Assembly (NCBI RefSeq): GCF_025526975.1
Contig: NW_026515668.1
Location: 62,001-126,000, forward strand
DNA length: 64,000 nt
DNA from: Fimicolochytrium jonesii
Taxonomy: Eukaryota
Reading direction: 5' to 3'
The stretch's first letter is position 1, and each line of letters starts with the position of its first letter. This document shows, one piece after another, positions 32,799-46,809 of this stretch. Position numbers and translations under genes: made by a program. The notes under the pieces are model-generated. The model saw only the letters and a program-made list of their open reading frames with translations, ran no database searches and was not told where the DNA came from.

Positions 32799-34043
32799 AT
32801 GACCAAGCGGAAACGAGACAACAAAGAGAACACGGCTGAAGTCACCAAAACCCAGAAGCCCCGCCTGCAAGGTTGGTGTGGTGTGTCCATCTCATTGAAC
32901 TAAGCGGTGGCCGTTCATTGGGGAAGCTACGCTACGGCCGTAGGCTGGTGTGGTGTGGTGTGGTATATATCGTCCAGTGGGTCACTGGCTTACCCAACAC
33001 ATCACCCAGAGACACCAACCATTCCGCCGGACTACGCTCGTTTCAAGAAACGATGGCTCAACAACCTCCTACGGCAACTGACGAACAAAAGCAGAATGCG
33101 CATCGCTGCTTTCGATCTTGACGCCGTGATACCCACGCTTTCCGCTAAACGTCAACCCAACACAATCACGAAACAAGGAAACGTCATAAGAAAGAAGACT
33201 CCCCAATGAGTTTATATGAACGAGATCTCGTTGCCGTCCTCCAGCACCCGGTCTTGGATAGAGGTATGAGCTAAATAGGAATGCTTTCCTTTCCGAGGAA
33301 AAGGTCCAATGCACTTCCAATCCCCAGCCATCTGCGTTGCAGAAGATGCAAAGGGCCTCCCGCTGTTCGCGTACGTCAATAACGCCGTTCATACGACAAA
33401 TATCGCCGATTTGAACAAAGCCATCCAGCAAATGATGGTAGAATACCCAACCAGCCTACTGAAGATGGACGATGCACGTCATGTAACATTCCCAGGGCAA
33501 CCGAAAGAATACGGAGCATGTAATCTGGGAATCTGGCAAGCGCAAGCGGCAACAGTGCCTTCCATCTCTGCCGAATCCGCCGTCTACCGTCACACAGCGG
33601 CTCAGAGCTTTCTGTGCTCCGAGGTCTTCCGGCGGCTCTGTTTCTCAGTTAGTCTGATGTTCGACAAGGTCGACCCGGGCATGGCAAAAGAATACCGGGA
33701 AGCGTTCAAACGGATGGCACCAGAGCATCAAGGATTCTGGGCTTCAAACCCCTACCAGAATTCGTTCGCGATGGTTGTGCTTGTCATCCACGAGTACGTT
33801 CTCAAGCATCGTGACCTGAAGGACGCCAAACACGGATGGTGTGCTGTCGTGTGCCTCGGCGACTTCAAAGACGTTAAATTCTGTCTTCCCGGTCTGGGGT
33901 TGCGTATTCCTTTTCAACCTGGCGATATTTTGTTCATTCGCTCCTTTGCTTTGGAACACATGGTTCGCAAGTGGCAACCGGGCTATCGATACACTATTGT
34001 GTTTAAAATGCACCAGCTGATTCTGAATGGAACCCCTGTTTAG
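32799..34043 (+). pseudogene. TET/JBP-family 2OG-Fe(II) dioxygenase (fungal KDZ-transposon-associated type), 5' part disrupted
   Basis: HRDLKDAKHGWCAVVCLGDF...CLPGLGLRIPFQPGDILFIRSFALEHMV...YRYTIVF gives the HxD...H...R signature. Same-frame upstream stops at 33207, 33267 and 33276. A basic N-terminal exon MTKRKRD begins at 32799. Confidence 0.8.
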
Positions 34044-34469: not shown

Positions 34470-35777
34470 ATGAAACATCCACTTCTCGCCGCCCTCCCCT
34501 TCCTATTCACCACCCCATCCGCCCTCGCCCAAATCGACACACCCCTCGGCCCCTTCCACCTCACCACCCTCGGCGCAACGCTCCTCAACCGCTTCGTCCC
34601 CGAGCTATGGACCGACCTGGGCCTGTTTCGGCACACGGTCAAGAATGTCGGGCAGAGGGCGTGTGTTCGTCTCACCGATGGAGACGACGCAGGGAAGGCG
34701 TTTGGGGCCGCATATCCCGTGAATGTAGAAGACATCGCCATGGACCGGGTGGGAAAGATCGCATTCATGGGCTCCGACCCCGTCCGCCGGAAAGCTGACG
34801 GGTCGCGCGGGTGGATGCCCGGTAGTGGGTTTCTGGACGCGGAGTTTGGGAGTAGCGCCGAGGGGGCTGTTTGGGCGTACCATTACGGGAAAAGTGAGGG
34901 TGGGATGACAAAGCTGGAGATCGAGCCCCCGTTGCCGAGTTTCCACCCGCATGGGATGGCGAGTCTGAGACTGGAGAACGGGACCGTGCGGCTCTTTGTG
35001 GTGAATCATAGGGCGGAGGTGCCGTATAACAAGACGGCGCTGTACTCGGTCGTCGAAGTGCTCGATTATACCCCCACCACCTCCTCTTTGGATGAACCAC
35101 AAGAACGACACACGAAACTCAACCACATCACAACCATCCAACACCCCCACATCTACACCCCAAACAACCTCTCCCCCATCTCCCCGACCGCCTTCTACGT
35201 CTCGAACGACCACGCCGCCCGCTCCGGCACCCTCCGCACCCTCGAGGAGTTCGCGCAGTACCCCTCCGCGTGGCTCACCTACTGCGACTTCACCCGGTCC
35301 GTGGACTGTTCGGTGGCGTACACGGGTCTACGCAGCGCCAACGGGGTCGCAACGGACGGGAAGGGGCTGGTGCTGGTGTCGGAGGTCAGCGGGGGGGACG
35401 TGCTCGCGTTCCGGCACCACCCGTCCACAGATAGCCACACACCCCCGCATCTCGAACTCACCACCCGATACAACCTCGACTACGTCCCCGACAACATCGG
35501 ATACGACCCCGTCACGGACACATTCACCCCCGTCGGACACCCCCGCGCGCTCGCGTTCCTCGCCTTTGCGGAGGGCCACGCACCCACCGCCCCGTCGTGG
35601 GCGGACGCCATCACCGCGGATGGGAGCATTAGCAGGGTGTGGAGCGATGACGGCGGGGTGGTGGCGGGGTCGACGGTGTTTGAGGTCGATGTGGAGGAGG
35701 ATGTGGCGTTCGTGAGCGGGGTGTATGATCAGCGCGGGGTGGTTAGGTGTCGCGTGCCGGAGGGGTTTGGGCGGTGA
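34470..35777 (+). CDS. Secreted paraoxonase/arylesterase-like six-bladed beta-propeller
   Basis: Signal peptide followed by PON-family motifs NVEDI, FHPHGM, LFVVNH, PNNL...FYVSNDH, SANGV, PDNI, GHP. Intronless. Confidence 0.88.
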   Translation: MKHPLLAALPFLFTTPSALAQIDTPLGPFHLTTLGATLLNRFVPELWTDLGLFRHTVKNVGQRACVRLTDGDDAGKAFGAAYPVNVEDIAMDRVGKIAFMGSDPVRRKADGSRGWMPGSGFLDAEFGSSAEGAVWAYHYGKSEGGMTKLEIEPPLPSFHPHGMASLRLENGTVRLFVVNHRAEVPYNKTALYSVVEVLDYTPTTSSLDEPQERHTKLNHITTIQHPHIYTPNNLSPISPTAFYVSNDHAARSGTLRTLEEFAQYPSAWLTYCDFTRSVDCSVAYTGLRSANGVATDGKGLVLVSEVSGGDVLAFRHHPSTDSHTPPHLELTTRYNLDYVPDNIGYDPVTDTFTPVGHPRALAFLAFAEGHAPTAPSWADAITADGSISRVWSDDGGVVAGSTVFEVDVEEDVAFVSGVYDQRGVVRCRVPEGFGR

Positions 35778-36435: not shown

Positions 36436-37625
36436 TTATGCCATGCTGTGGTCGGAAGAGAAAATACGTCAATGAGATGATCGTTTGTTGATAAACGTAT
36501 AGACGTGTCTCAAAACACATACCTGTCAATAAGCGAATCCCTCATCTGATTCACAATATACGTCGGCTGAGCATCCTGCAGCTTGAAGATGCTTTCTATC
36601 ACACTCAGCTCCGTCGACGTCGTATCCAGCCCAGAGAACGCGCTCCAGTCGTTCACCACCAACCCAGCTCCAATCAAGTCCGAACCGCGGTTGACCGTTC
36701 CCGCCACCAACGGAATCTGCAACAGCGACGAGAGCTCGTCCTGGTCCTCCACGGAGGTCTTTGGGTGCACGAGGCCGCCCTGGTTTGAGAGCGCGCAGTA
36801 GGATCCGACGAGGACGTTGCCTGCGATGGTTTGTCGGAAGACTTCGACTTTGAGTGCGTCGGCGATGATTTCTTCCGTCTCGCGGTCGACGTCTGGGTGC
36901 ACTAAGGCGACGTAGTCGTTGCAGGCGATGACGTTGCCGAGGGCGGAGAGACGCTCTTCGACGCGTTGGATGGCGACGGTGTCGGGGAGGGAGTTGCGAA
37001 GGTGCTGCATTTCTTGGTCGGTGGTGGTGTTGGGGAGGAGGAGGCCGTGGCGGTTTCCGGCAGTCAAGCGGCCGATGATACGGGTGCCGCCGATGGAGGT
37101 GTGGACGACGGGGACGACGTCTGCGAGCTCGGATTCGAAGACGCTAAGTGAGAGAGGAGGGAAGGATAGAGATTGAGAAGGTGTCTTGTACGGCTTTGCA
37201 TACGAAAAAGGCTTGTTCGAGAGAATGGGCTGATCTCCTGCAATTCCACGGGGAGCTTCCTCGCCAGCGGGATTCTCCATGGGCTGAACCCTTCTAGTGA
37301 CCTCCGTGCTTTCCATACTCTCAACCATCCTCCCTATATCATCCCCCACTTCCACGTCCATTCCGATCCGCATTCCAACTCTGCCATTCCTCCTTCTCAC
37401 AACTCCAGCGTCCCCTTCCAAAGTTCCCTGCCGTGCGGGCGGAATCCGGATATGTACCTGTAGAAGTTCTCAGAGCCGCCGATAGCGACGAGAGCGTACG
37501 AGTTTGTGAGACGGGAGAAGACCCCAATGTCGTTGCTGTTTTCGAATTGAGCACCTGTTCGAAACCATGCGTGAGTAGGAGCGGACGGTGGGAAGTGGCA
37601 CTCATTTGACCTTACGAGTAGCCAT
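36436..37625 (-). CDS. TIF6: Eukaryotic translation initiation factor 6 (4 exons)
   Basis: [42 protein letters not shown]...[16 protein letters not shown]...[20 protein letters not shown]...AGTVNRGS. Last exon completes DSMA*. Confidence 0.97.
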
Positions 37626-38166
37626 TTTGGGTGAGTTTTCGGGGGGGTTGTTGGGGGAGTAGTTGACGGGGGTTGGGTGGAGGTAAAGAGGAAGGGGGTT
37701 AGGTCGAGTAGGACGACGACTGCCAGTTGCCAGACCGTCTGTCTGTGTGTGTTTTGTGTTTGCTTTTTGAACTTTTGCGAAGGGATTTCTCAACGCGCTG
37801 GTCCACCCACCCTCCCCCTACTGCGAGACTCCTATTGTGGAGCCTCCTCGCAAATCAGATTAGAACCCGCGCGGGCTGCTAAGTAAATCATGTCATGTCC
37901 GTCTTGCTCTCTCTGCATGACTCGTCAGACTGACTGCGCGAATAGATAAATCATCTGTCTGCCACAGGGTCCCACGTGCAGGGGCGGGAGCGCGCAACCC
38001 TAACCCCCCCGGGCGCAACCCAAACGGGCGTTGGCGAAGCGCTCCCGTTGGGACCCGACCGACGACAACAACAATCCTCGTCTTGACCCCCCCCAGAACG
38101 TCGACCTGTCGTTGCGCTATCTCCCCCCCTCCCCATCCTTCCTCATATACCGCACACGCAGCAAAG

Positions 38167-39411
38167 ATGGCAACCCCCGCCACTCGCCAGGCCGTCAAGG
38201 TCGACTGGGCCACTCTCGGCCAGAAGCTCAAGCCGGACACCCTCGCCGCCGTAAACGCTTTCCGCAGAAGGCACATCGAACTCACAAAGACCGTCGCCGA
38301 TCTCAAGGACCACGCTACCGTCATCGACTTCAACCACTACCGCTCGGTGCTGAAGAACTCGAAGGTGGTCGACGACGCTGAAAGGGCTTTCACTAGCTTC
38401 AAACCGGCGACTTACGACCTCAGGGAGCAGATTCGTGCGCTCGACGCCCAGCAGCAGAAGGCGGTATGTATGGACGCAGAGAGGAGGGAGAGATACTTAG
38501 CAGAGCCCGCGGGATACCGAGTGCGGTTGATTCGTACAAGGGAGCCAAAGCGGTGATGGTGATTTCGCGCAAGGGTCGCTGCGAGCTAGGACGAGTGCTG
38601 ACCGCGGCGAGCGAAGCGAGGTGCAGGGATGCTTGAGGCCGACAGCCCTATGGGTGCCCGCGAGGGCGACCAGAGCAAACCCTCCGCGAGGAGTAGTGAG
38701 CCCGAGCGGAGCGAGTTGCCATTGCGCCTTTGGCGCAATGCTTCCCCCACAACGGTTTTTTAGCGAGCATCGCCGAGCGTTGCGCTTTTTGCGAGCGAAG
38801 CGAGCACGCTCCGCCCACCGCAACCCAGCACTCTTGTCGCGAGCGGAGGGAGCAGGTTATCGCTTTCATCCGTCATCTCCGAGATTCCCACCGGAATTGC
38901 CACGCATCTGAGTCCACCAGTCCGAAATTCCCACAAACTCATGATCCCATCTCTCTCTCAATCTTAGGTCGCGGCAGCGCAAAAGACGCAGCAAAAAGTG
39001 AAAGGCGAGGTAGACGAGCTCAAGGTTCTGTTGACCAACATCGAGACGGCCCGCCCCGTCGACCAGCTCACCGTCGACGACGTCGCAAAGGCTTACCCGG
39101 AACTCGACAAGACCGTCGAGAAGATGGTCAAGCGTGGTCAGTGGAAGGTGCCTGGTTACTACGAGAGGTATGTATTCTAGGGATTTCGCTGGGAGTGGAT
39201 TTTGGGAATGTGGGAGGAGATTTGGGTCGGGGTGTGGGGATTTGGGACAATGGGAGGACCAAGAGGAGGGATTGGGGTTTCTGGATGAGGGAGAAGAGGA
39301 GCATATTGCGAAACTCTCACGCCACAATCGACATCGATAAGCACAAACTAACAAAATCCTCCTCCTCCCCTCTTCTCACACAGGTTCGGCGAATTCATCG
39401 TCGGTTTCTAA
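38167..39411 (+). CDS. ATP7: Mitochondrial ATP synthase subunit d (introns 38464-38967 and 39168-39383)
   Basis: VKVDWATLG...NAFRRR...IDFNHYRSVLKN...LTNIETARPVDQLTVDDV...KRGQWKVPGYYERFGE. Confidence 0.93.
38560..38856 (+). repeat. GC-rich multi-hairpin element in ATP7 intron 1 (copy 2, longer)
   Basis: Repeated gcgagcgaagcgag / cgagcggagcgag units and a perfect 9-bp stem cattgcgcc-TTT-ggcgcaatg at 38720-38740. Similar to 3397-3475. Confidence 0.7.
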
Positions 39412-40767
39412 GCTGCGCATTCGCGACTTGGCCTTCGTTTAGACCTAAAATCTCTTGAAACCACCACCCATGGATATACACCCACAACCATTATACAAAA
39501 CTACAGGATATCTACCCAACCTCGCTTGTGCCTATCGCTATTTGTGTGGTCTTCTGTGGGGGATTTGGGAAGATTTGCGGGCCGGTCGGCAGGGAAAAAG
39601 AGACAGGTTCACGGAAAAGAGCGAATTTATCCATTTGGGGCGTCCTGAAAACGCAGAGGGCAAAAATGGTCCAGGCACACGGGAGGTGAAAAAAAGCGAG
39701 CCTCTTCCGTCCGTCCAGCTGGGACTCTGGAAGACAACCGGTTTACCTCCCCGCTACTCCCAAATCCCCTAGGGGCGGTTCCCTTGGTTAGGGGGTTCAG
39801 ACATGGAACTCCCCCCTCGTCCAATTGTAGCAGTCACATAAACATGACTATACACAGTCCGAGACCCACAAATGTATTGACGCCCCCAAAAAACACAGAA
39901 ACGGTACATGCGAGGAACCAAGGACTCCATACATACGCCATTCCAATTTTTTTTTGCCCTCCCGACATCCACAAACGACTCGCCATGAAAACACACCCTG
40001 ACCCTGAACATGGGAGAGATGGCACGCCGGGGGGGATATCCAGTGGGGGATCAATGTATCGGATATGGGGGCGTTGGGGACGGCGGGACTACTAACTGGG
40101 TGCGTGAGATACCGGCGGCGGGTGTGCGGGGGTTGGGGAAGGTAGATAGAATTCGCAAACGGGGTGTATTCTGAGCGGCCATGTAGATCTGCGCAAGCCC
40201 CGTTTTTTTGGCCAAATCCCCCGTGTAGCGAAAGGCCCCCCCCCCTTCCCCCCCCCCCCCCCCGAACGAGTAAGAACATGATGACCACGCCCGGGGATTT
40301 TTGTCGTCGTGAAGACTGGGGGGTTATGCGCGGACCGGATGGCGGGATTTGGCGTGCATGTGGGTGGGGGTGGTGCTGGGATCCCGGTTCTGATCGTTGG
40401 GCCCGCCTGCGTCCCTGCGTCCCATGGGAAGCATGTGTCGAGAGCTGGTTTAGCAAGTCGACGAGGGGCAGGTTTGCAACGTGTCTGAGCGAGGGTGCGT
40501 ACCGCAGGGGGGGGGGGTACGAGGTGAGGGTGGGGTCTGGCTTGGCGTCGTGGGTTGTCGCATCGTCAGGAGTAAGGTGACACTTATCCGCCCCTACATG
40601 CGCTTGGTGCACGCGCCTGCAACGTGCTGGCGGTGAGTCCCGTCCGCGGGTACGGGAATCCGTATTCCAGCCGAATCGGCGGGGAATATCTCCCGATTGC
40701 CCATCTCTACATCCGTGTTGCCACAGTTGCAACTTCGGGACGGGATGCCAGTCTACTGTCCCCCTCC

Positions 40768-42627
40768 TCAAACGGTCGGAACATCCTCCTCCTCCATCTC
40801 AACCTCATCATCCGCAACGACAAACCCCGTCAAATCCCCTTCCTCCTCCTCCCCACTCCCATCTTCCCCATCCCCCACACCTCCCCGTTGTCTCACACCA
40901 GGCGTCGACCGTCCCCATGCAAACCGATACCCCCCGCCTACCCGTCTCCCCAACCCGCCGACCGCCGGCGACAGGAGAGATTTGGCGTAGAACGCTCTCA
41001 GAGACGCGGGTGATTTCCCCACCGATTTGACGGCAGAAGACGGTGTAGACCCTGCCGAGTTGCTGACTACGAAACCGGTCAAGTCTTTGTCCCAGTCTTC
41101 GTTGGGGAGGGGTTGTTCGTCGCCGGAGTCGGAGGAATTGGACCCAGGTGAGAGGGCGGCGGAGAGGTCGAGGAAGGGGTTGGCTGTTGTTGGGGAGGGG
41201 CGTTTGGTGGCGTGGCGGGGGATGAGTTTGCGACGCCGGCGGAGGGGGGTTTTGATTATTGGGGGGGATGGTTTATTTGGTGGTGGTGGTGCTTCTTCGA
41301 CGTCGACAACATGCGCAGGTGACGCGACCCCAACGGCGACGTTATGGTTGATTGGAGGTGTCCCATCTCCACCAGAGGTGGTCGACCCCGAACTCGCAAC
41401 CGAAGGCGAGACGATCTGCTGCGACGTCAGACTTAGATCGTGCTCCACGGCCAGGAGGGCGGATTCGAAGGCGAGGTCGTCGTCGTTGTCGGATTCGATT
41501 TCTGTTATGGTGTCTATGAGTGTTGTTGTTGTTGTTGTTGTTGTTGTGGAGTGAGGGATGGAGGGGTGAGGGCGGGTTTTAAGGGGCGTTTCGGGGATGT
41601 AGTGTGTGAGGTCGAGGTCGATGTCGAGGGGAATGTCGTAGTCCATGTCTGAGTCGGTTGGGTCTGGGTGTGGTGGTGGTGCGAGGGTGGTTGTTGCGTG
41701 GGAGATAGGGGGGAGCGCTGAGATACGACGGGTTGTTGGTGCGGCTGTTGTTTCTTGATATGTGCATCGTTGTGCTGATGTTGATTTCGATGTCCCGCCC
41801 GCACCTCCGTGCATCGCCGGCGGCATATTCTCATTCCCACCACCCTGATTCATGTTCACAGTTCCCGCACCGCCTGGATGCGCATGGCCATTCCCTGCCC
41901 CCTCTCCACCTCCCAGACCTCCACCAACCATCCCCCTCAACACCCCCTCCAACCTAACAGCCGGCTCCACAGCATTCATCTCCGCAACCCCACCCCCCCA
42001 CACCCTACACACCCCCGTATGCAACAACAACACCCCCCTCCTAACCATCCCCCCCTCAACCCCAACTTTCACCCCCAACGGCATATCAACACTCAACCCC
42101 GGAATAAACCCACACTCCATCGCCGTGATGCAGCTGAACCCATCCGTCAAGACCAACCGGAGCATCTTGCGCGGGAGTTTAACGCGTGGTGGCGTTGTTG
42201 CCGGTGGACGATTTCGCATCCCAGGGGTGGGCGGCATCCCCGGCTCGGCTTTTTTGGGTTTTTGGTCGATCACCATCTCCAGCAACGTATGCTTCGATAC
42301 CCCGACCTCCATCACATCCTCCACCTGCAGCACCACCGCCCTATTCCTCCCCCCATCCGCTCCAAGAACAACCCCATGCGCATCCCCGACATTCCCCGGA
42401 ATCACCCTCCGCGTAATAATCCCGCTCTTGAGGTCCGTGAGCAGGATTTGGTTGACGACGTTGTCGAGAAGCTGGGCGTCGGTAGTGATTGGCGCGGGGG
42501 CTGAGGAGCGGAGGTAGGCGACGCATTCGGAGAGCCAGGTTGGGTGGACGTGGAAGCCGCGGGTTGTGAGGAGGGGGAGGAGGCTGGGTGGGATGGGGGG
42601 TGGGGGCTGGGATTGGGTGCACTGCAT
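40768..42627 (-). CDS. RMI1: RMI1 (RecQ-mediated genome instability 1) N-terminal OB domain with a long disordered tail
   Basis: WLSECV...ILLTDL...VVLQVEDVMEVGVS...RKMLRLVLTDG...AMECGFIPGLSVDMPLGVKV...VRRGVLLL...VWGGGV matches RMI1_N. Intronless. Confidence 0.9.
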   Translation of the reverse strand: MQCTQSQPPPPIPPSLLPLLTTRGFHVHPTWLSECVAYLRSSAPAPITTDAQLLDNVVNQILLTDLKSGIITRRVIPGNVGDAHGVVLGADGGRNRAVVLQVEDVMEVGVSKHTLLEMVIDQKPKKAEPGMPPTPGMRNRPPATTPPRVKLPRKMLRLVLTDGFSCITAMECGFIPGLSVDMPLGVKVGVEGGMVRRGVLLLHTGVCRVWGGGVAEMNAVEPAVRLEGVLRGMVGGGLGGGEGAGNGHAHPGGAGTVNMNQGGGNENMPPAMHGGAGGTSKSTSAQRCTYQETTAAPTTRRISALPPISHATTTLAPPPHPDPTDSDMDYDIPLDIDLDLTHYIPETPLKTRPHPSIPHSTTTTTTTTTLIDTITEIESDNDDDLAFESALLAVEHDLSLTSQQIVSPSVASSGSTTSGGDGTPPINHNVAVGVASPAHVVDVEEAPPPPNKPSPPIIKTPLRRRRKLIPRHATKRPSPTTANPFLDLSAALSPGSNSSDSGDEQPLPNEDWDKDLTGFVVSNSAGSTPSSAVKSVGKSPASLRAFYAKSLLSPAVGGLGRRVGGGYRFAWGRSTPGVRQRGGVGDGEDGSGEEEEGDLTGFVVADDEVEMEEEDVPTV

Positions 42628-43001: not shown

Positions 43002-45402
43002 ATGCCGCCATCAAAACTCACCCAACAGCAATCCGCATCAGAACTCCTCCGCCTCCGCCGCGCCGAAGAGCTCCTCTCCTACATCGACCGCATGAAAGCG
43101 CAAGAAGCCGCCACCCGCCGCACGCTTCTCGCCGAGCATGTTGCTGTGCAGAAGGCCGCGATTGATCGTAGGTCGACGGTGCTGGAGAAACGCAGGGTCG
43201 CGAGGGAGAGGGAGGAGGCCAGGGCACGGAGGGAGGGTGTTAGGGAGGTGAGTGGGGAGATGTCTCTTCGTGCAAAATCTTGGAAACGAGAATGCGCTCA
43301 TGAGTCCCTTTTGTAACTCACATCACCAACAGCGCCGTCGCTACCTCGAAGCCATCTCTCGCATCCCCGATACCGTAGATGAGTCCCAGCCCGCGCACAC
43401 CACTTCCTCGAATCAGCACCATCCACCCAAAGCACCACCACCCGTCTACACAGGCAGCATCCAATCCATTCCACTGCATCACAACCCCTCCCGCACCGTC
43501 CTTACCGGGCTCCAGACAAGCAGCGCCGACGTATCCCTTCCGCGGCGGTCGATGACGAATCTCATTTCCGAAGACCGACATCTAGACGGTGATGCAGCGG
43601 TTCACCATCGTGCTCCTACCAACCCTCGACGCCTAGCATCCAACGCGAAAAGCCACCCCAGACGTCTCCACACCCGCACCCTGCACAAATCGGCAGCTTA
43701 CCACGCCCAAGCAGCCGACATGCGCATGGTTCGGACAGAGGCGGGGCGGAAAGTACTGCCGCCGCCTAGCCGACAAGGAATACCTGCTGACGAGGTCGGA
43801 AATGTGAGCGGCGACGACGCGAGCCGTCCCATCACAACACCATCCTCCAAACCTTTCACCCCCACAACGCAATCACAGAAACCCAGCACCGCCGACACAG
43901 GCAAACAGATCTGGCGTCGCGTCCAACTCCGCCTCCTCGCCGCCGGCCAGTTCCAATCCCCCACCGCCACCGCCCCTCCCAAAGTCTTCCGCACAGAAGC
44001 CGCCTTCCGCCGCTTCAAAGAAAAATACAACGACCCGAATTTAGACAAAGACATCCCGGATGAAGAGACGGAGAACAGTGAGGAGAAGGCCGGCCCGGCG
44101 GGGACACGGTTGGCGAGCAGGGTGGCGATGTACACGTCTGCGACGAGGAACCGGAAACGAACCGTGGCGTTTGTGCAGAGCCGGGGGACGACGGGGGGCG
44201 GGGTGGTGGGGAATCTGCGGAGCGGGGAGGCGGCGGGGAGGAGCGGGACGCCACCACCTCGGAATGGTGGTGGGAAGGCGAAAGAGCCGACGGCGCTGAT
44301 GTCGGATACTGACCTGGGAGTGTTCGCCCTCCACCTCCGCACCGCACGGACCGACCGCTCCTCCCCACCGCCTAATCTAGACCTCATCGACACGGGCGAG
44401 TCCACCACCATCCCCGCCGACGACACGACAATGGAAGTCGACGCATTCGGCGTCCCCGTCCGTGCAGGTGGCAAACGACGCGGGACGATGATCGCAGTTA
44501 CGCGGCAGGGCGGGGTGGACACGCGGCGGGACAGTGTCAGTGTCGGACGTGGAGGTGGTCGGGGTACACCTGATCTCAACACGGGGATCGCGGAAGTGAT
44601 GTTAGATACCAGCGGGACGGTGTTGACACATGAGGAAGCGCTCTCGGCTGCCGTGGAGCAGATGGGGAAGGGGAGGAGGGGGATGAGTGCTTCACAGCAA
44701 CCAACGCAGGCGAGGCAGTCGGAGTATGGCAAGGAGAGGGGGATGAGTGGGACTGGGGATCGGGGTAGTGGCGCGGGAAGGGAGAGGTTGAGGACTGCGC
44801 CGACGGGGGACAGCGCAGGTGCCAATCTGAATCAGCAGCAGCAGCAGCAGCAGCGTGGGGAGTCGCAGGTGAGAGCTTCCACGGCTCCACCGGGATCGTC
44901 TGCCAAACAAGGCGATTGGCGGGCGGGCACGAAGCCTGCGAGCGGGAATGATCTCGGGGTTGGACTCGCAGAAGAGGATGAGGGTGCCCATGAAGATACC
45001 GTACATGAGACAGAGGAATCCAACACCGGCGACACAGTCCCATACGACCCCACAACCGCCCTCCCCACAACCGCCCTGACCACGCACCCTTCCTCCCCAC
45101 CTCCCCGCCGCCGTCCGCGAGTCTTCAAAACCTGGCAACCCATCTCCTTCAGCGCCGCGGCCGAGACCAAACGGGTGTTGATGCCCAAACGTCTTTTCGA
45201 ACTGCCAGCGTCGTCCTGTGGGGAGGGAGAGTGGACGTCAACGGTGATGAAGGGTGTGACGCCGGTTGTTGTTGATAAGTGGAGGGATGATGATACTAGT
45301 AAGGGAGGGGAGAGGATTGCGGTGCCGAAGGTGATGCGATTTTGGAGTACGGCGCCTGGGGCTGCTGCTGCGGGAGCGCCAGTATCGCATGCACGGAGTT
45401 GA
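43002..45402 (+). CDS. Hypothetical, largely disordered protein (intron ~43248-43332)
   Basis: An N-terminal coiled-coil exon joins a long open frame through GTGAGT...CAG. No family recognised. Confidence 0.7.
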
Positions 45403-45509: not shown

Positions 45510-46358
45510 CTACATGCTAGCAGACAGCTTCTCGGCCAACTGCTTCAGCTCAGCCTTGTCGGCTTCCTTGCCCGGCCACCCGACGCCCAAGCCTTCGGTC
45601 TCGTTGGGCTTGGGGATGATGTGGAAGTGCACGTGCTCTACGACTTGGTGGGCTAGTTTTCCGTTGTTCTGATAGGGGAGAGAGGGGTATAAGTAGAGAC
45701 GCCGGTGCGTCAGGGATATAACAACGGTTCGATGACCTACCTGGAGAACGTTGTAGTTGGGCACATTTAGCGCCTTGGCGACCTTCTTTGCGACGGGGAG
45801 GATGTCAGCGAGACTCTCGTCGGAGAGCTCGTGCATGAATTGTGCATGTTCTAGGAAATCAAACAATATCGAGTCACCATCATCCGTTATCGAGTCACCA
45901 TCATCCGTTTCGCTTCTGACGCGTACTCCCCATCATGCCCATACACTTACGTTTGGGAATCACCAACTGTTTGCATCACATGCGGCAAGAGAGCATCCAA
46001 TGGTGAAGTTTGTTGAGTCCATCATTTTTTCTCCACGTAACCCAGCACGGTGCACTCATCGCCTCCTACTCACAGTCTGCGTTTGTTACTTCCAAAGTCA
46101 GCGTTCGGTGCTTCCTCAAATTGGAAAGGCAGCCCATACCAGTCATTACTCACATGTCCCTTAGCGATAGGTCCAACGTCCAGAAACGCATAGGTGAGCT
46201 CCGTCTCTATCACTTTGAACGACGGGATGGCTCCCTTGATGATCTGCGAGTCGGAGAGTAAAAAACGTGTGAGGGGCTTGACTGGTATAGGGAGGACCAA
46301 GCTCTTGCAAATATGGCAAGGCCCAACATACCTTGCAGAAGATGCAGTTGGCTGCCAT
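45510..46358 (-). CDS. HNT1: HIT-family nucleotide hydrolase HNT1/HINT (multi-exon, including 3-nt and 16-nt exons)
   Basis: MAANCIFCK/IIKGAIPSFKV...AFLDVGPIAKGH/T/LVIPK/...YNVLQ/NNGKLAHQVVEHVHFHIIPK, containing the HxHxH triad. Confidence 0.95.
45867..45908 (+). repeat. Perfect 21-bp tandem duplication in an HNT1 intron
   Basis: tatcgagtcaccatcatccgt occurs twice in tandem. Confidence 0.9.
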
Positions 46359-46809
46359 TGCGATGATGTTATGGGTTCCCCGATGGTTGACTGTCAAGGT
46401 AAGTGAGGGTTGAAGTTGAACTTGGGAAGCAGCGGGTGACAGCGAAGCAACTGGAGAACACAGGCGGAACCGCGCTGTCGAAATCAGCGGGATTCCCATA
46501 TTGACAGGACGCAAGCAGCCCTCTGTGCGCCACCCTCTGGGGGACTTGATGTAGAGTGCGGATATCACCTTCCTAGTTCTGAGACACTTCCCGTCCTCCG
46601 GTGATCCAGCTATCCAAGTTATCTGATTGCAGCAGACTGAGCCCAGAAAGCCTCACCCGAACGTTCGCAGCTTAGACCCTCAGACCTCTCTTTCTCATCC
46701 GAGTTCAAAGCGCATACTGGCGCCTGCAGCATAGCATCCTCTAGCTCAATATCAATAACTTAGTAGATTCCAAAGCAAGTGACCACGCATAGCCGTAGCA
46801 TTCAACAAT

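What the first reader, a model, noticed from the sequence alone, without database searches (positions are those of the whole stretch)
40768..41190. RMI1 carries a C-terminal tail resembling the FANCM MM3 motif (possible Rosetta-stone fusion)
Seen in sequence: the intronless RMI1 ORF ends with NPFLDLSAALS-(acidic)-DLTGFVV...SLRAFYAKSLLSP...EEEEGDLTGFVVADDEVE instead of a second OB fold. Established knowledge, recalled from memory: animal and plant FANCM contain a conserved MM3 region of the form FLDxEAxxS-acidic-DFxxD...MRAIYxKSLxSP followed by an acidic DSFxVDxE, and FANCM binds the RMI1/RMI2 subcomplex of BLM-TopoIIIa through MM2. Inference: this lineage may have moved the poorly understood MM3 module onto RMI1, which would link MM3 function to the dissolvasome.
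Basis: partly seen in the sequence, partly recalled or inferred. Interest (0 to 1): 0.85.

Follow-up and report, generated by a model that had tools for sequence, protein, structure and literature searches.

The report
RMI1 fused to FANCM's orphan motif
In this chytrid fungus one open reading frame joins the DNA-repair protein RMI1 to a copy of MM3, a conserved piece of the FANCM helicase with no known job, and part of MM3 resembles the histone-gripping motif of Spt5, so MM3 may be a histone-binding arm that here would ride on the Bloom complex.

Summary
Confirmed. A 619-codon frame (42627-40768, minus strand) has RMI1's two N-terminal domains, no second OB fold, and a 132-residue tail that is a true FANCM MM3 homologue: 46% identical to Geranomyces FANCM (E 2e-24), and 28.6 bits on an animal-only MM3 profile against at most 5.7 in 3000 shuffles.

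The fusion is a singleton so far: 0 of 116 other RMI1-type proteins, 10 named chytrid RMI1s among them, carry MM3. The own genome, own FANCM and RNA were not available, so 'moved' versus 'copied' and expression are open.

All four MM3 boxes score like those of real FANCMs, and no near-identical donor turned up, which favours an old, selected fusion. New lead: the only solved-structure sequences matched by an MM3 profile are Spt5 (E 0.012), at the motif whose F, E and V residues bind histones H3-H4. MM3 keeps that triad in 82 of 101 FANCM-type rows, but this tail has lost the E. Verdict: a real, novel domain architecture; function inferred, untested.

The parts
40768..42627 (-). RMI1-MM3 fusion ORF, 619 aa plus stop
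   Evidence: exact protein on public record
42427..42570 (-). RMI1 N-terminal helical domain (aa 20-67), with LLTD at 62-65
   Evidence: Pfam PF21000 E 8e-10; coordinates
41971..42348 (-). RMI1 first OB fold (aa 94-219)
   Evidence: Pfam PF08585 E 2e-21; human RMI1 44 bits against TDRD3 27 bits
41437..41490 (-). acidic-hydrophobic linker motif (aa 380-397) shared with other chytrid RMI1 linkers; likely the RPA-binding motif
   Evidence: the same pattern found in 4 of 9 other RMI1s; RPA role inferred from PMC7838300
41224..41247 (-). basic patch (aa 461-468); the RMI1/FANCM junction likely lies between aa about 400 and 480
   Evidence: a profile of the FANCM region before MM3 does not match it
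40792..41187 (-). FANCM MM3 homologue (aa 481-612)
41149..41181 (-). MM3 box 1 (aa 483-493), Spt5N-like; the near-invariant E is S here
41065..41085 (-). MM3 box 2, DLTGFVV (aa 515-521)
40954..40995 (-). MM3 box 3, Y-x-x-S-L-x-S-P helix (aa 545-558)
   Evidence: the only helix of 4 or more residues in the MM3 model
40900..40941 (-). GGY-x-FAWGR-x-TP block, seen only in Spizellomycetales-type FANCM rows (aa 563-576)
   Evidence: alignment of 34 rows
40810..40836 (-). MM3 box 4, second DLTGFVV (aa 598-606)

Best explanation
This is an RMI1 reading frame whose C-terminal OB fold is absent and whose tail is a FANCM MM3 segment, likely gained in frame from the lineage's own FANCM gene, likely expressed as one protein and kept by selection, and predicted to act as a flexible docking arm, most likely for displaced histones H3-H4, on the BLM-Top3a-RMI1 complex. 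Shown: the architecture, the homology, and that MM3 box 1 has the spacing of the Spt5N histone-binding residues. Established: OB1 binds Top3a and BLM, while OB2 with RMI2 forms the pocket for FANCM MM2, which in animals holds MM3 next to the complex. Inferred: without OB2 that tether is gone, and the covalent tail would restore MM3's presence at dissolution or fork-restart sites. Odds by step: real genomic fusion 0.9, one protein 0.85, tail under selection 0.7, histones as the ligand about 0.35.
For: Homology. The tail is 49-58% identical to Spizellomycetales MM3s, within the 44-66% they show between genera, while the RMI1 part is 39-46%. All five scored blocks fall within the range of the FANCM comparison rows. 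Boxes 2 and 4 are the same heptapeptide with 6 of 7 codons synonymously different, and both carry a T seen in 1 of 101 and 0 of 95 other rows. No near-identical donor. The 240-codon linker stayed open in 12 of 20000 base shuffles and has no donor consensus; it holds an RMI1-type acidic motif. Spt5 lead: 3 of 177635 PDB sequences matched, all Spt5, E 0.012; weak Spt5_N hits in 3 of 13 MM3 fragments; F/E/hydrophobic triad in 82 of 101 rows against Spt5 F180/E184/V187 (PMC8886531).
Against: One genome only: 0 of 116 RMI1-type hits have MM3, and two metagenome scans found nothing. The box 1 glutamate (98 of 101 rows, S in none) is serine here, so the very motif that suggests histone binding is damaged in this copy. 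Codon bias gives the linker and tail little support (scores -0.14, -0.07, -0.06 against +0.11 for the N-terminus; GC3 0.55-0.65 against 0.74). The Spt5 match is weak, below Pfam's cut-off, and acidic. Trees do not fix the donor (p-AU 0.07-0.43 for three placements). Powellomyces, Geranomyces, Gaertneriomyces and Zopfochytrium RMI1 models also lack OB2 yet have no MM3, so losing OB2 does not demand the tail. Human FANCM lacking MM3 rescued SMARCAL1 lethality nearly like wild type.
Confidence: 0.5

Rival explanations
1. Recent passenger: a piece of FANCM was copied onto the dispensable, disordered end of an RMI1 that had already lost OB2, and is now decaying without a function.
For: Singleton; loss of the near-invariant E and of acidic residues in box 1; short OB2-less RMI1 models in relatives show the end is dispensable; weak codon bias.
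Against: A recent copy should leave a near-identical donor; the best of the 8 MM3s compared is 58% and none closer appeared. Those searches can miss it: length limits, 50% clustering, and Gaertneriomyces MM3 was not seen either. All boxes are otherwise intact.
Confidence: 0.2
2. Functional fusion, but boxes 2-4 dock a non-histone partner (a replisome, kinase or repair factor) and box 1 is no longer needed once MM3 is tethered to RMI1.
For: Box 1 E is lost while boxes 2-4 are intact and boxes 2 and 4 changed in parallel; box 3 has no Spt5 counterpart in the alignment. This overlaps the best explanation in all but the ligand.
Against: No candidate partner emerged from any call; the Spt5 match also covers box 2.
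Confidence: 0.2
3. Artefact: a misassembly or wrong gene model joins RMI1 to the organism's real FANCM MM3, or the tail is not in the RMI1 transcript.
For: No reads or RNA could be examined; a misjoin would also explain why no own FANCM MM3 was seen and why the tail is as conserved as a FANCM.
Against: The join is in frame; the record lies on a 2.24-Mb contig; no other FANCM-like sequence lies before or after the tail, though Spizellomycetales FANCMs run on 80 or more residues past box 4; no long repeat at the junction; no donor consensus in linker or tail.
Confidence: 0.1

Closest known systems
RMI1 (BTR/dissolvasome subunit) of chytrids and animals
   Same: N-terminal helical domain, OB1 and an acidic linker motif; groups with Spizellomycetales RMI1 (87/95).
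   Different: No OB2, so no RMI2/MM2 pocket; ends in MM3; long branch (1.58 against 0.28-1.11 in that group).
FANCM MM3 (human aa 1502-1708, function unknown; PMC6743340, PMC6538672)
   Same: All four boxes in order and spacing; 46% identity over 155 columns to Geranomyces FANCM.
   Different: Sits on RMI1, with no helicase, MHF-binding or ERCC4 part; box 1 E replaced by S.
Spt5 acidic N-terminal histone-binding motif (PMC8886531)
   Same: F, E at +4 and a hydrophobic residue at +7, then an acidic run and F-I/V-x-D.
   Different: Weak match (E 0.012) over boxes 1-2 only; may be convergent; binding untested; the tail lacks the E.
Budding yeast Rmi1 (single OB fold; recalled)
   Same: Works with OB1 only.
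   Different: Short, with no linker or MM3 tail.

Membership tests
RMI1 | N-terminal helical domain plus OB1 | tested here: met
   Pfam above cut-off
RMI1 | closer to RMI1 than to TDRD3 | tested here: met
   44 against 27 bits in PDB; nearest hits are named RMI1s
RMI1 (long, animal/chytrid type) | C-terminal OB2 that binds RMI2 | tested here: not met
RMI1 | sole RMI1 of the genome, binds Top3a and BLM | not testable with these tools
   no genome held
FANCM MM3 module | profile match to animal FANCM MM3 | tested here: met
   28.6 bits against at most 5.7 in 3000 shuffles, reversed -0.7
FANCM MM3 module | four boxes in order | tested here: met
FANCM MM3 module | near-invariant E of box 1 | tested here: not met
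   S489; E in 98 of 101 rows
FANCM | SF2 translocase, MHF-binding and ERCC4 parts | tested here: not met
   none in the protein or the window
Spt5N-type histone-binding motif | F, E(+4), hydrophobic(+7) in an acidic stretch | tested here: inconclusive
   met in 82 of 101 FANCM-type rows, two of three in this tail; E 0.012
Spt5N-type histone-binding motif | binds H3-H4 | not testable with these tools

The most novel reading that the evidence does not exclude
FANCM MM3, without a known function since it was defined, is an Spt5N-type histone H3-H4 capture module, and this chytrid has moved it from FANCM onto RMI1, giving the Bloom dissolvasome its own histone-handling arm in place of the lost FANCM tether.
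Probability: 0.2. Interest if true: 0.88.

Novelty: new variant of a known kind. Interest (0 to 1): 0.62.

Why it matters
MM3 is one of three conserved motifs in the middle of FANCM, a cancer-predisposition gene and ALT-cancer target, and two papers read here call its function unknown. A natural fusion shows MM3 is a portable module of about 130 residues and places it on the complex that FANCM otherwise recruits through MM2. Following it gave a concrete, cheap test: three residues predicted to grip H3-H4. If true, FANCM and BTR would handle parental histones at remodelled forks and junctions, as Spt5 and Mcm2 do for their machines. The limit is that the fusion is known from one genome.

Tried and rejected
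Pfam has no family for the tail (0 at E<=1). Word-based search with the RMI1 N-terminus found only the query. Atlas: no usable hit for the tail; for Spizellomyces MM3 one SPT6_acidic cluster at 0.75, which is chance level. Two metagenome scans: 592 and 163 pattern hits, none confirmed. Earlier scan findings: nothing in 3 look-ups. Complex prediction of Spizellomyces RMI1 OB1 with its FANCM MM3 returned 'no answer' (score 0.00, alignments not used) and is not used either way. Fold of MM3: pLDDT 59, pTM 0.20, one helix, too poor for a fold search, so none was run. An MM2 profile from 18 fish rows found no MM2 in chytrid FANCMs but also failed on molluscs (best 1.8 bits), so co-loss of MM2 and OB2 is undecided; its anchor motif was recalled. 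A hidden OB2 exon or further FANCM pieces in the window: none. Linker 236-482 against six FANCMs: no match above shuffles (best 4 of 200, low-complexity). TDRD3 identity rejected. Horizontal origin not needed, and not excluded by trees. One row of unknown taxon was in the first animal profile and dropped. A wrong training frame was corrected.

Full report
Observation. The minus-strand frame 42627..40768 encodes 619 residues without a stop. Pfam places RMI1_N_N at 20-67 and RMI1_N_C at 94-219, and finds nothing in the last 160 residues. Human RMI1 scores 44 bits and TDRD3 27. A profile of 8 RMI1 C-terminal OB folds gives the protein -2.5 bits and at most 3.8 bits to 2075 six-frame pieces of the window, so there is no hidden OB2 exon. 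The exact protein is on record in NCBI, UniRef and nr as a cluster of one, on a 2.24-Mb contig. No whole genome is held, and no RNA or read evidence could be examined.

The tail is MM3. Residues 470-612 found 2 proteins among 1405 candidates of 1085-3095 aa, both Geranomyces variabilis helicases (E 2e-24 and 6e-24, 46% identity), whose best solved relative is human FANCM (E 2e-157). I fetched the best 120 of 5207 FANCM relatives. The tail aligns to one internal region of them, strongest in Spizellomycetales (99-104 bits for Geranomyces and Spizellomyces) and weakly in fish. A profile from 43 animal rows alone scores the tail 28.6 bits; 3000 shuffles reach at most 5.7 and the reversed tail -0.7. 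That the animal region is MM3 follows from position: in gar it lies at about 1585-1690, between an MM2-like motif at 1286 and ERCC4 from about 1850, as human MM3 (1502-1708) lies between MM2 and ERCC4 (PMC6743340, passages). The mouse MM3 guide and primer in bioRxiv 2020.10.29.357996 (passages) translate by hand to EVSGEDV and PEQDENY, which fit the fish rows.

How widespread. One HMMER pass over 1.84 billion representatives, with a profile covering both halves, gave 319 hits at E<=0.001, of which 150 were listed and 139 were new. Of these 116 match the RMI1 N-terminus and 23 only MM3. None of the 116 (61 of them 400 aa or longer) has MM3: best 3.0 bits against 79.7 for the window protein. Of the 23, 10 carry FANCM-type Pfam domains and 13 none. 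I named 20 hits. Ten are chytrid RMI1s: six with OB2 (Spizellomyces, Borealophlyctis, Rhizophlyctis, Quaeritorhiza, Batrachochytrium, and Triparticalcar below cut-off) and four models without it (Powellomyces 384 aa in two strains, Geranomyces 348, Gaertneriomyces 206, Zopfochytrium 399), which may be true losses or short models. Two metagenome scans found nothing. The fusion is therefore a singleton, within the limits of 50% clustering and the 169 unlisted hits.

Origin. Both halves group with Spizellomycetales (MM3 85/84, with the long Nowakowskiella row inside; RMI1 87/95; neither starred). Without 7 rows the MM3 group dissolves, and AU tests reject none of three placements (p 0.43, 0.07, 0.27). 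The better pointer is the block GGY-x-FAWGR-x-TP, found only in the tail and Spizellomycetales-type rows. Nothing FANCM-like lies before residue 475 or after the stop. The linker keeps an acidic motif found by the same pattern in 4 of 9 other RMI1s, likely the RPA-binding motif that PMC7838300 (passages) describes for human RMI1. So the junction lies between about residues 400 and 480. The organism's own FANCM was not identified. No near-identical MM3 appeared, which argues against a very recent copy, but split models and clustering can hide it: Powellomyces FANCM was missing for that reason, and no Gaertneriomyces MM3 was seen.

Is it coding and selected? For: the 240-codon linker stayed open in 12 of 20000 base shuffles, and the single donor-like site in the ORF lies at codon 206. 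The tail is 49-58% identical to Spizellomycetales MM3s, which are 44-66% identical between genera. Each block scores within the range of the 11 FANCM comparison rows. Boxes 2 and 4 are both DLTGFVV with 6 of 7 codons differing silently, and their T occurs in 1 of 101 and 0 of 95 other rows. Against: codon-bias scores are -0.14 and -0.07 in the linker and -0.06 in the tail, against +0.11 in the N-terminus, about 0 in a neighbouring low-complexity ORF and -0.13 to -0.23 in the flank. The box 1 glutamate, present in 98 of 101 rows, is serine. These rows are redundant, with many fish.

What MM3 may do. It is predicted to be mostly unstructured, with one helix at box 3 (pLDDT 59), so it likely works as linear motifs. 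A 34-row MM3 profile matched 3 of 177635 PDB sequences at E<=10, all Spt5, over boxes 1-2 (E 0.012). Pfam Spt5_N appears weakly at its first positions in 3 of 13 MM3 fragments (E 0.045-1.4). PMC8886531 (passages) shows that Spt5N binds H3-H4 through F180, E184 and V187. MM3 box 1 has F or Y, E at +4 and L/V/I/M at +7 in 82 of 101 rows. A box 1-2 pattern occurred 66 times inside called MM3 regions and once in 264452 other residues, and that one is a FANCM stretch the profile had missed. The histone reading is a lead at about 0.35: the match is weak and acidic, and this tail has only two of the three residues.

Mechanism. In human cells RMI1 OB2 with RMI2 forms the pocket for FANCM MM2 (bioRxiv 2026.09.10.750333, PMC6538672, PMC4573851, PMC4696737; passages), which places MM3 beside the complex. 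An RMI1 without OB2 cannot form that pocket. A fused MM3 would supply the motif directly: OB1 would hold Top3a and BLM, the acidic motif RPA, and the tail displaced histones or another partner. These last steps are inferred. Relatives lack OB2 without gaining MM3, and human FANCM without MM3 still rescues SMARCAL1 loss (bioRxiv 2024.02.27.582393, passages), so any benefit may be modest.

Literature. Ten searches on FANCM with MM3, RMI1, chytrid, Spt5, H3-H4 and AlphaFold showed no report of an RMI1-MM3 fusion or of an MM3 ligand. I saw listings with abstract starts, and passages of 13 papers. PMC13451438, PMC12851032, PMC13728430 and bioRxiv 2025.03.07.642025 added nothing on MM3; the last ties FANCM to histones through TONSL. 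Deans and West 2009 was not read, most subscription papers are not searched, and no supplements were opened; predicted-interaction tables there could already hold an MM3 partner.

Verdict. A real and apparently unreported domain architecture, a new variant of RMI1, known from one genome.

Noticed in passing
FANCM proteins (20 Mortierellaceae rows): 20 of 20 Mortierellaceae FANCMs lack MM3 (best 5.2 bits), while 76 of all 120 rows have it at 25 bits or more (31 rows trained the profile): an apparent lineage-wide loss.
   Followed up: partly
P0124, P0133, P0126, P0138: RMI1 models of Powellomyces, Geranomyces, Gaertneriomyces and Zopfochytrium lack the C-terminal OB fold found in six other chytrids; true loss or short models not settled.
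   Followed up: partly
P0003, P0004, P0007: Geranomyces and Triparticalcar FANCM models lack the ERCC4/HhH end that Spizellomyces and Powellomyces FANCM have.
   Followed up: no
window 38600-38855: The first intron of the neighbouring gene holds a GC-rich stretch with several GCGAGCG(A/G)AGCGAG-like repeats; possibly a small inserted element.
   Followed up: no
window 43252-45402 (+): A 716-codon low-complexity frame divergent from RMI1, with a 377-codon antisense frame at 43698-44831; not annotated here.
   Followed up: no
window 33279-34043 (+): A 254-codon frame that looks like a 2-oxoglutarate/iron oxygenase of the kind found in fungal transposons (label recalled, not scanned).
   Followed up: no
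window 34470-35777 (+), 36510-37700 (-), 38168-39412 (+), 45510-46600 (-): Neighbours read as an arylesterase-like gene, eIF6, ATP synthase subunit d and a HIT protein (labels recalled, not scanned); useful anchors for a synteny check of the junction.
   Followed up: no
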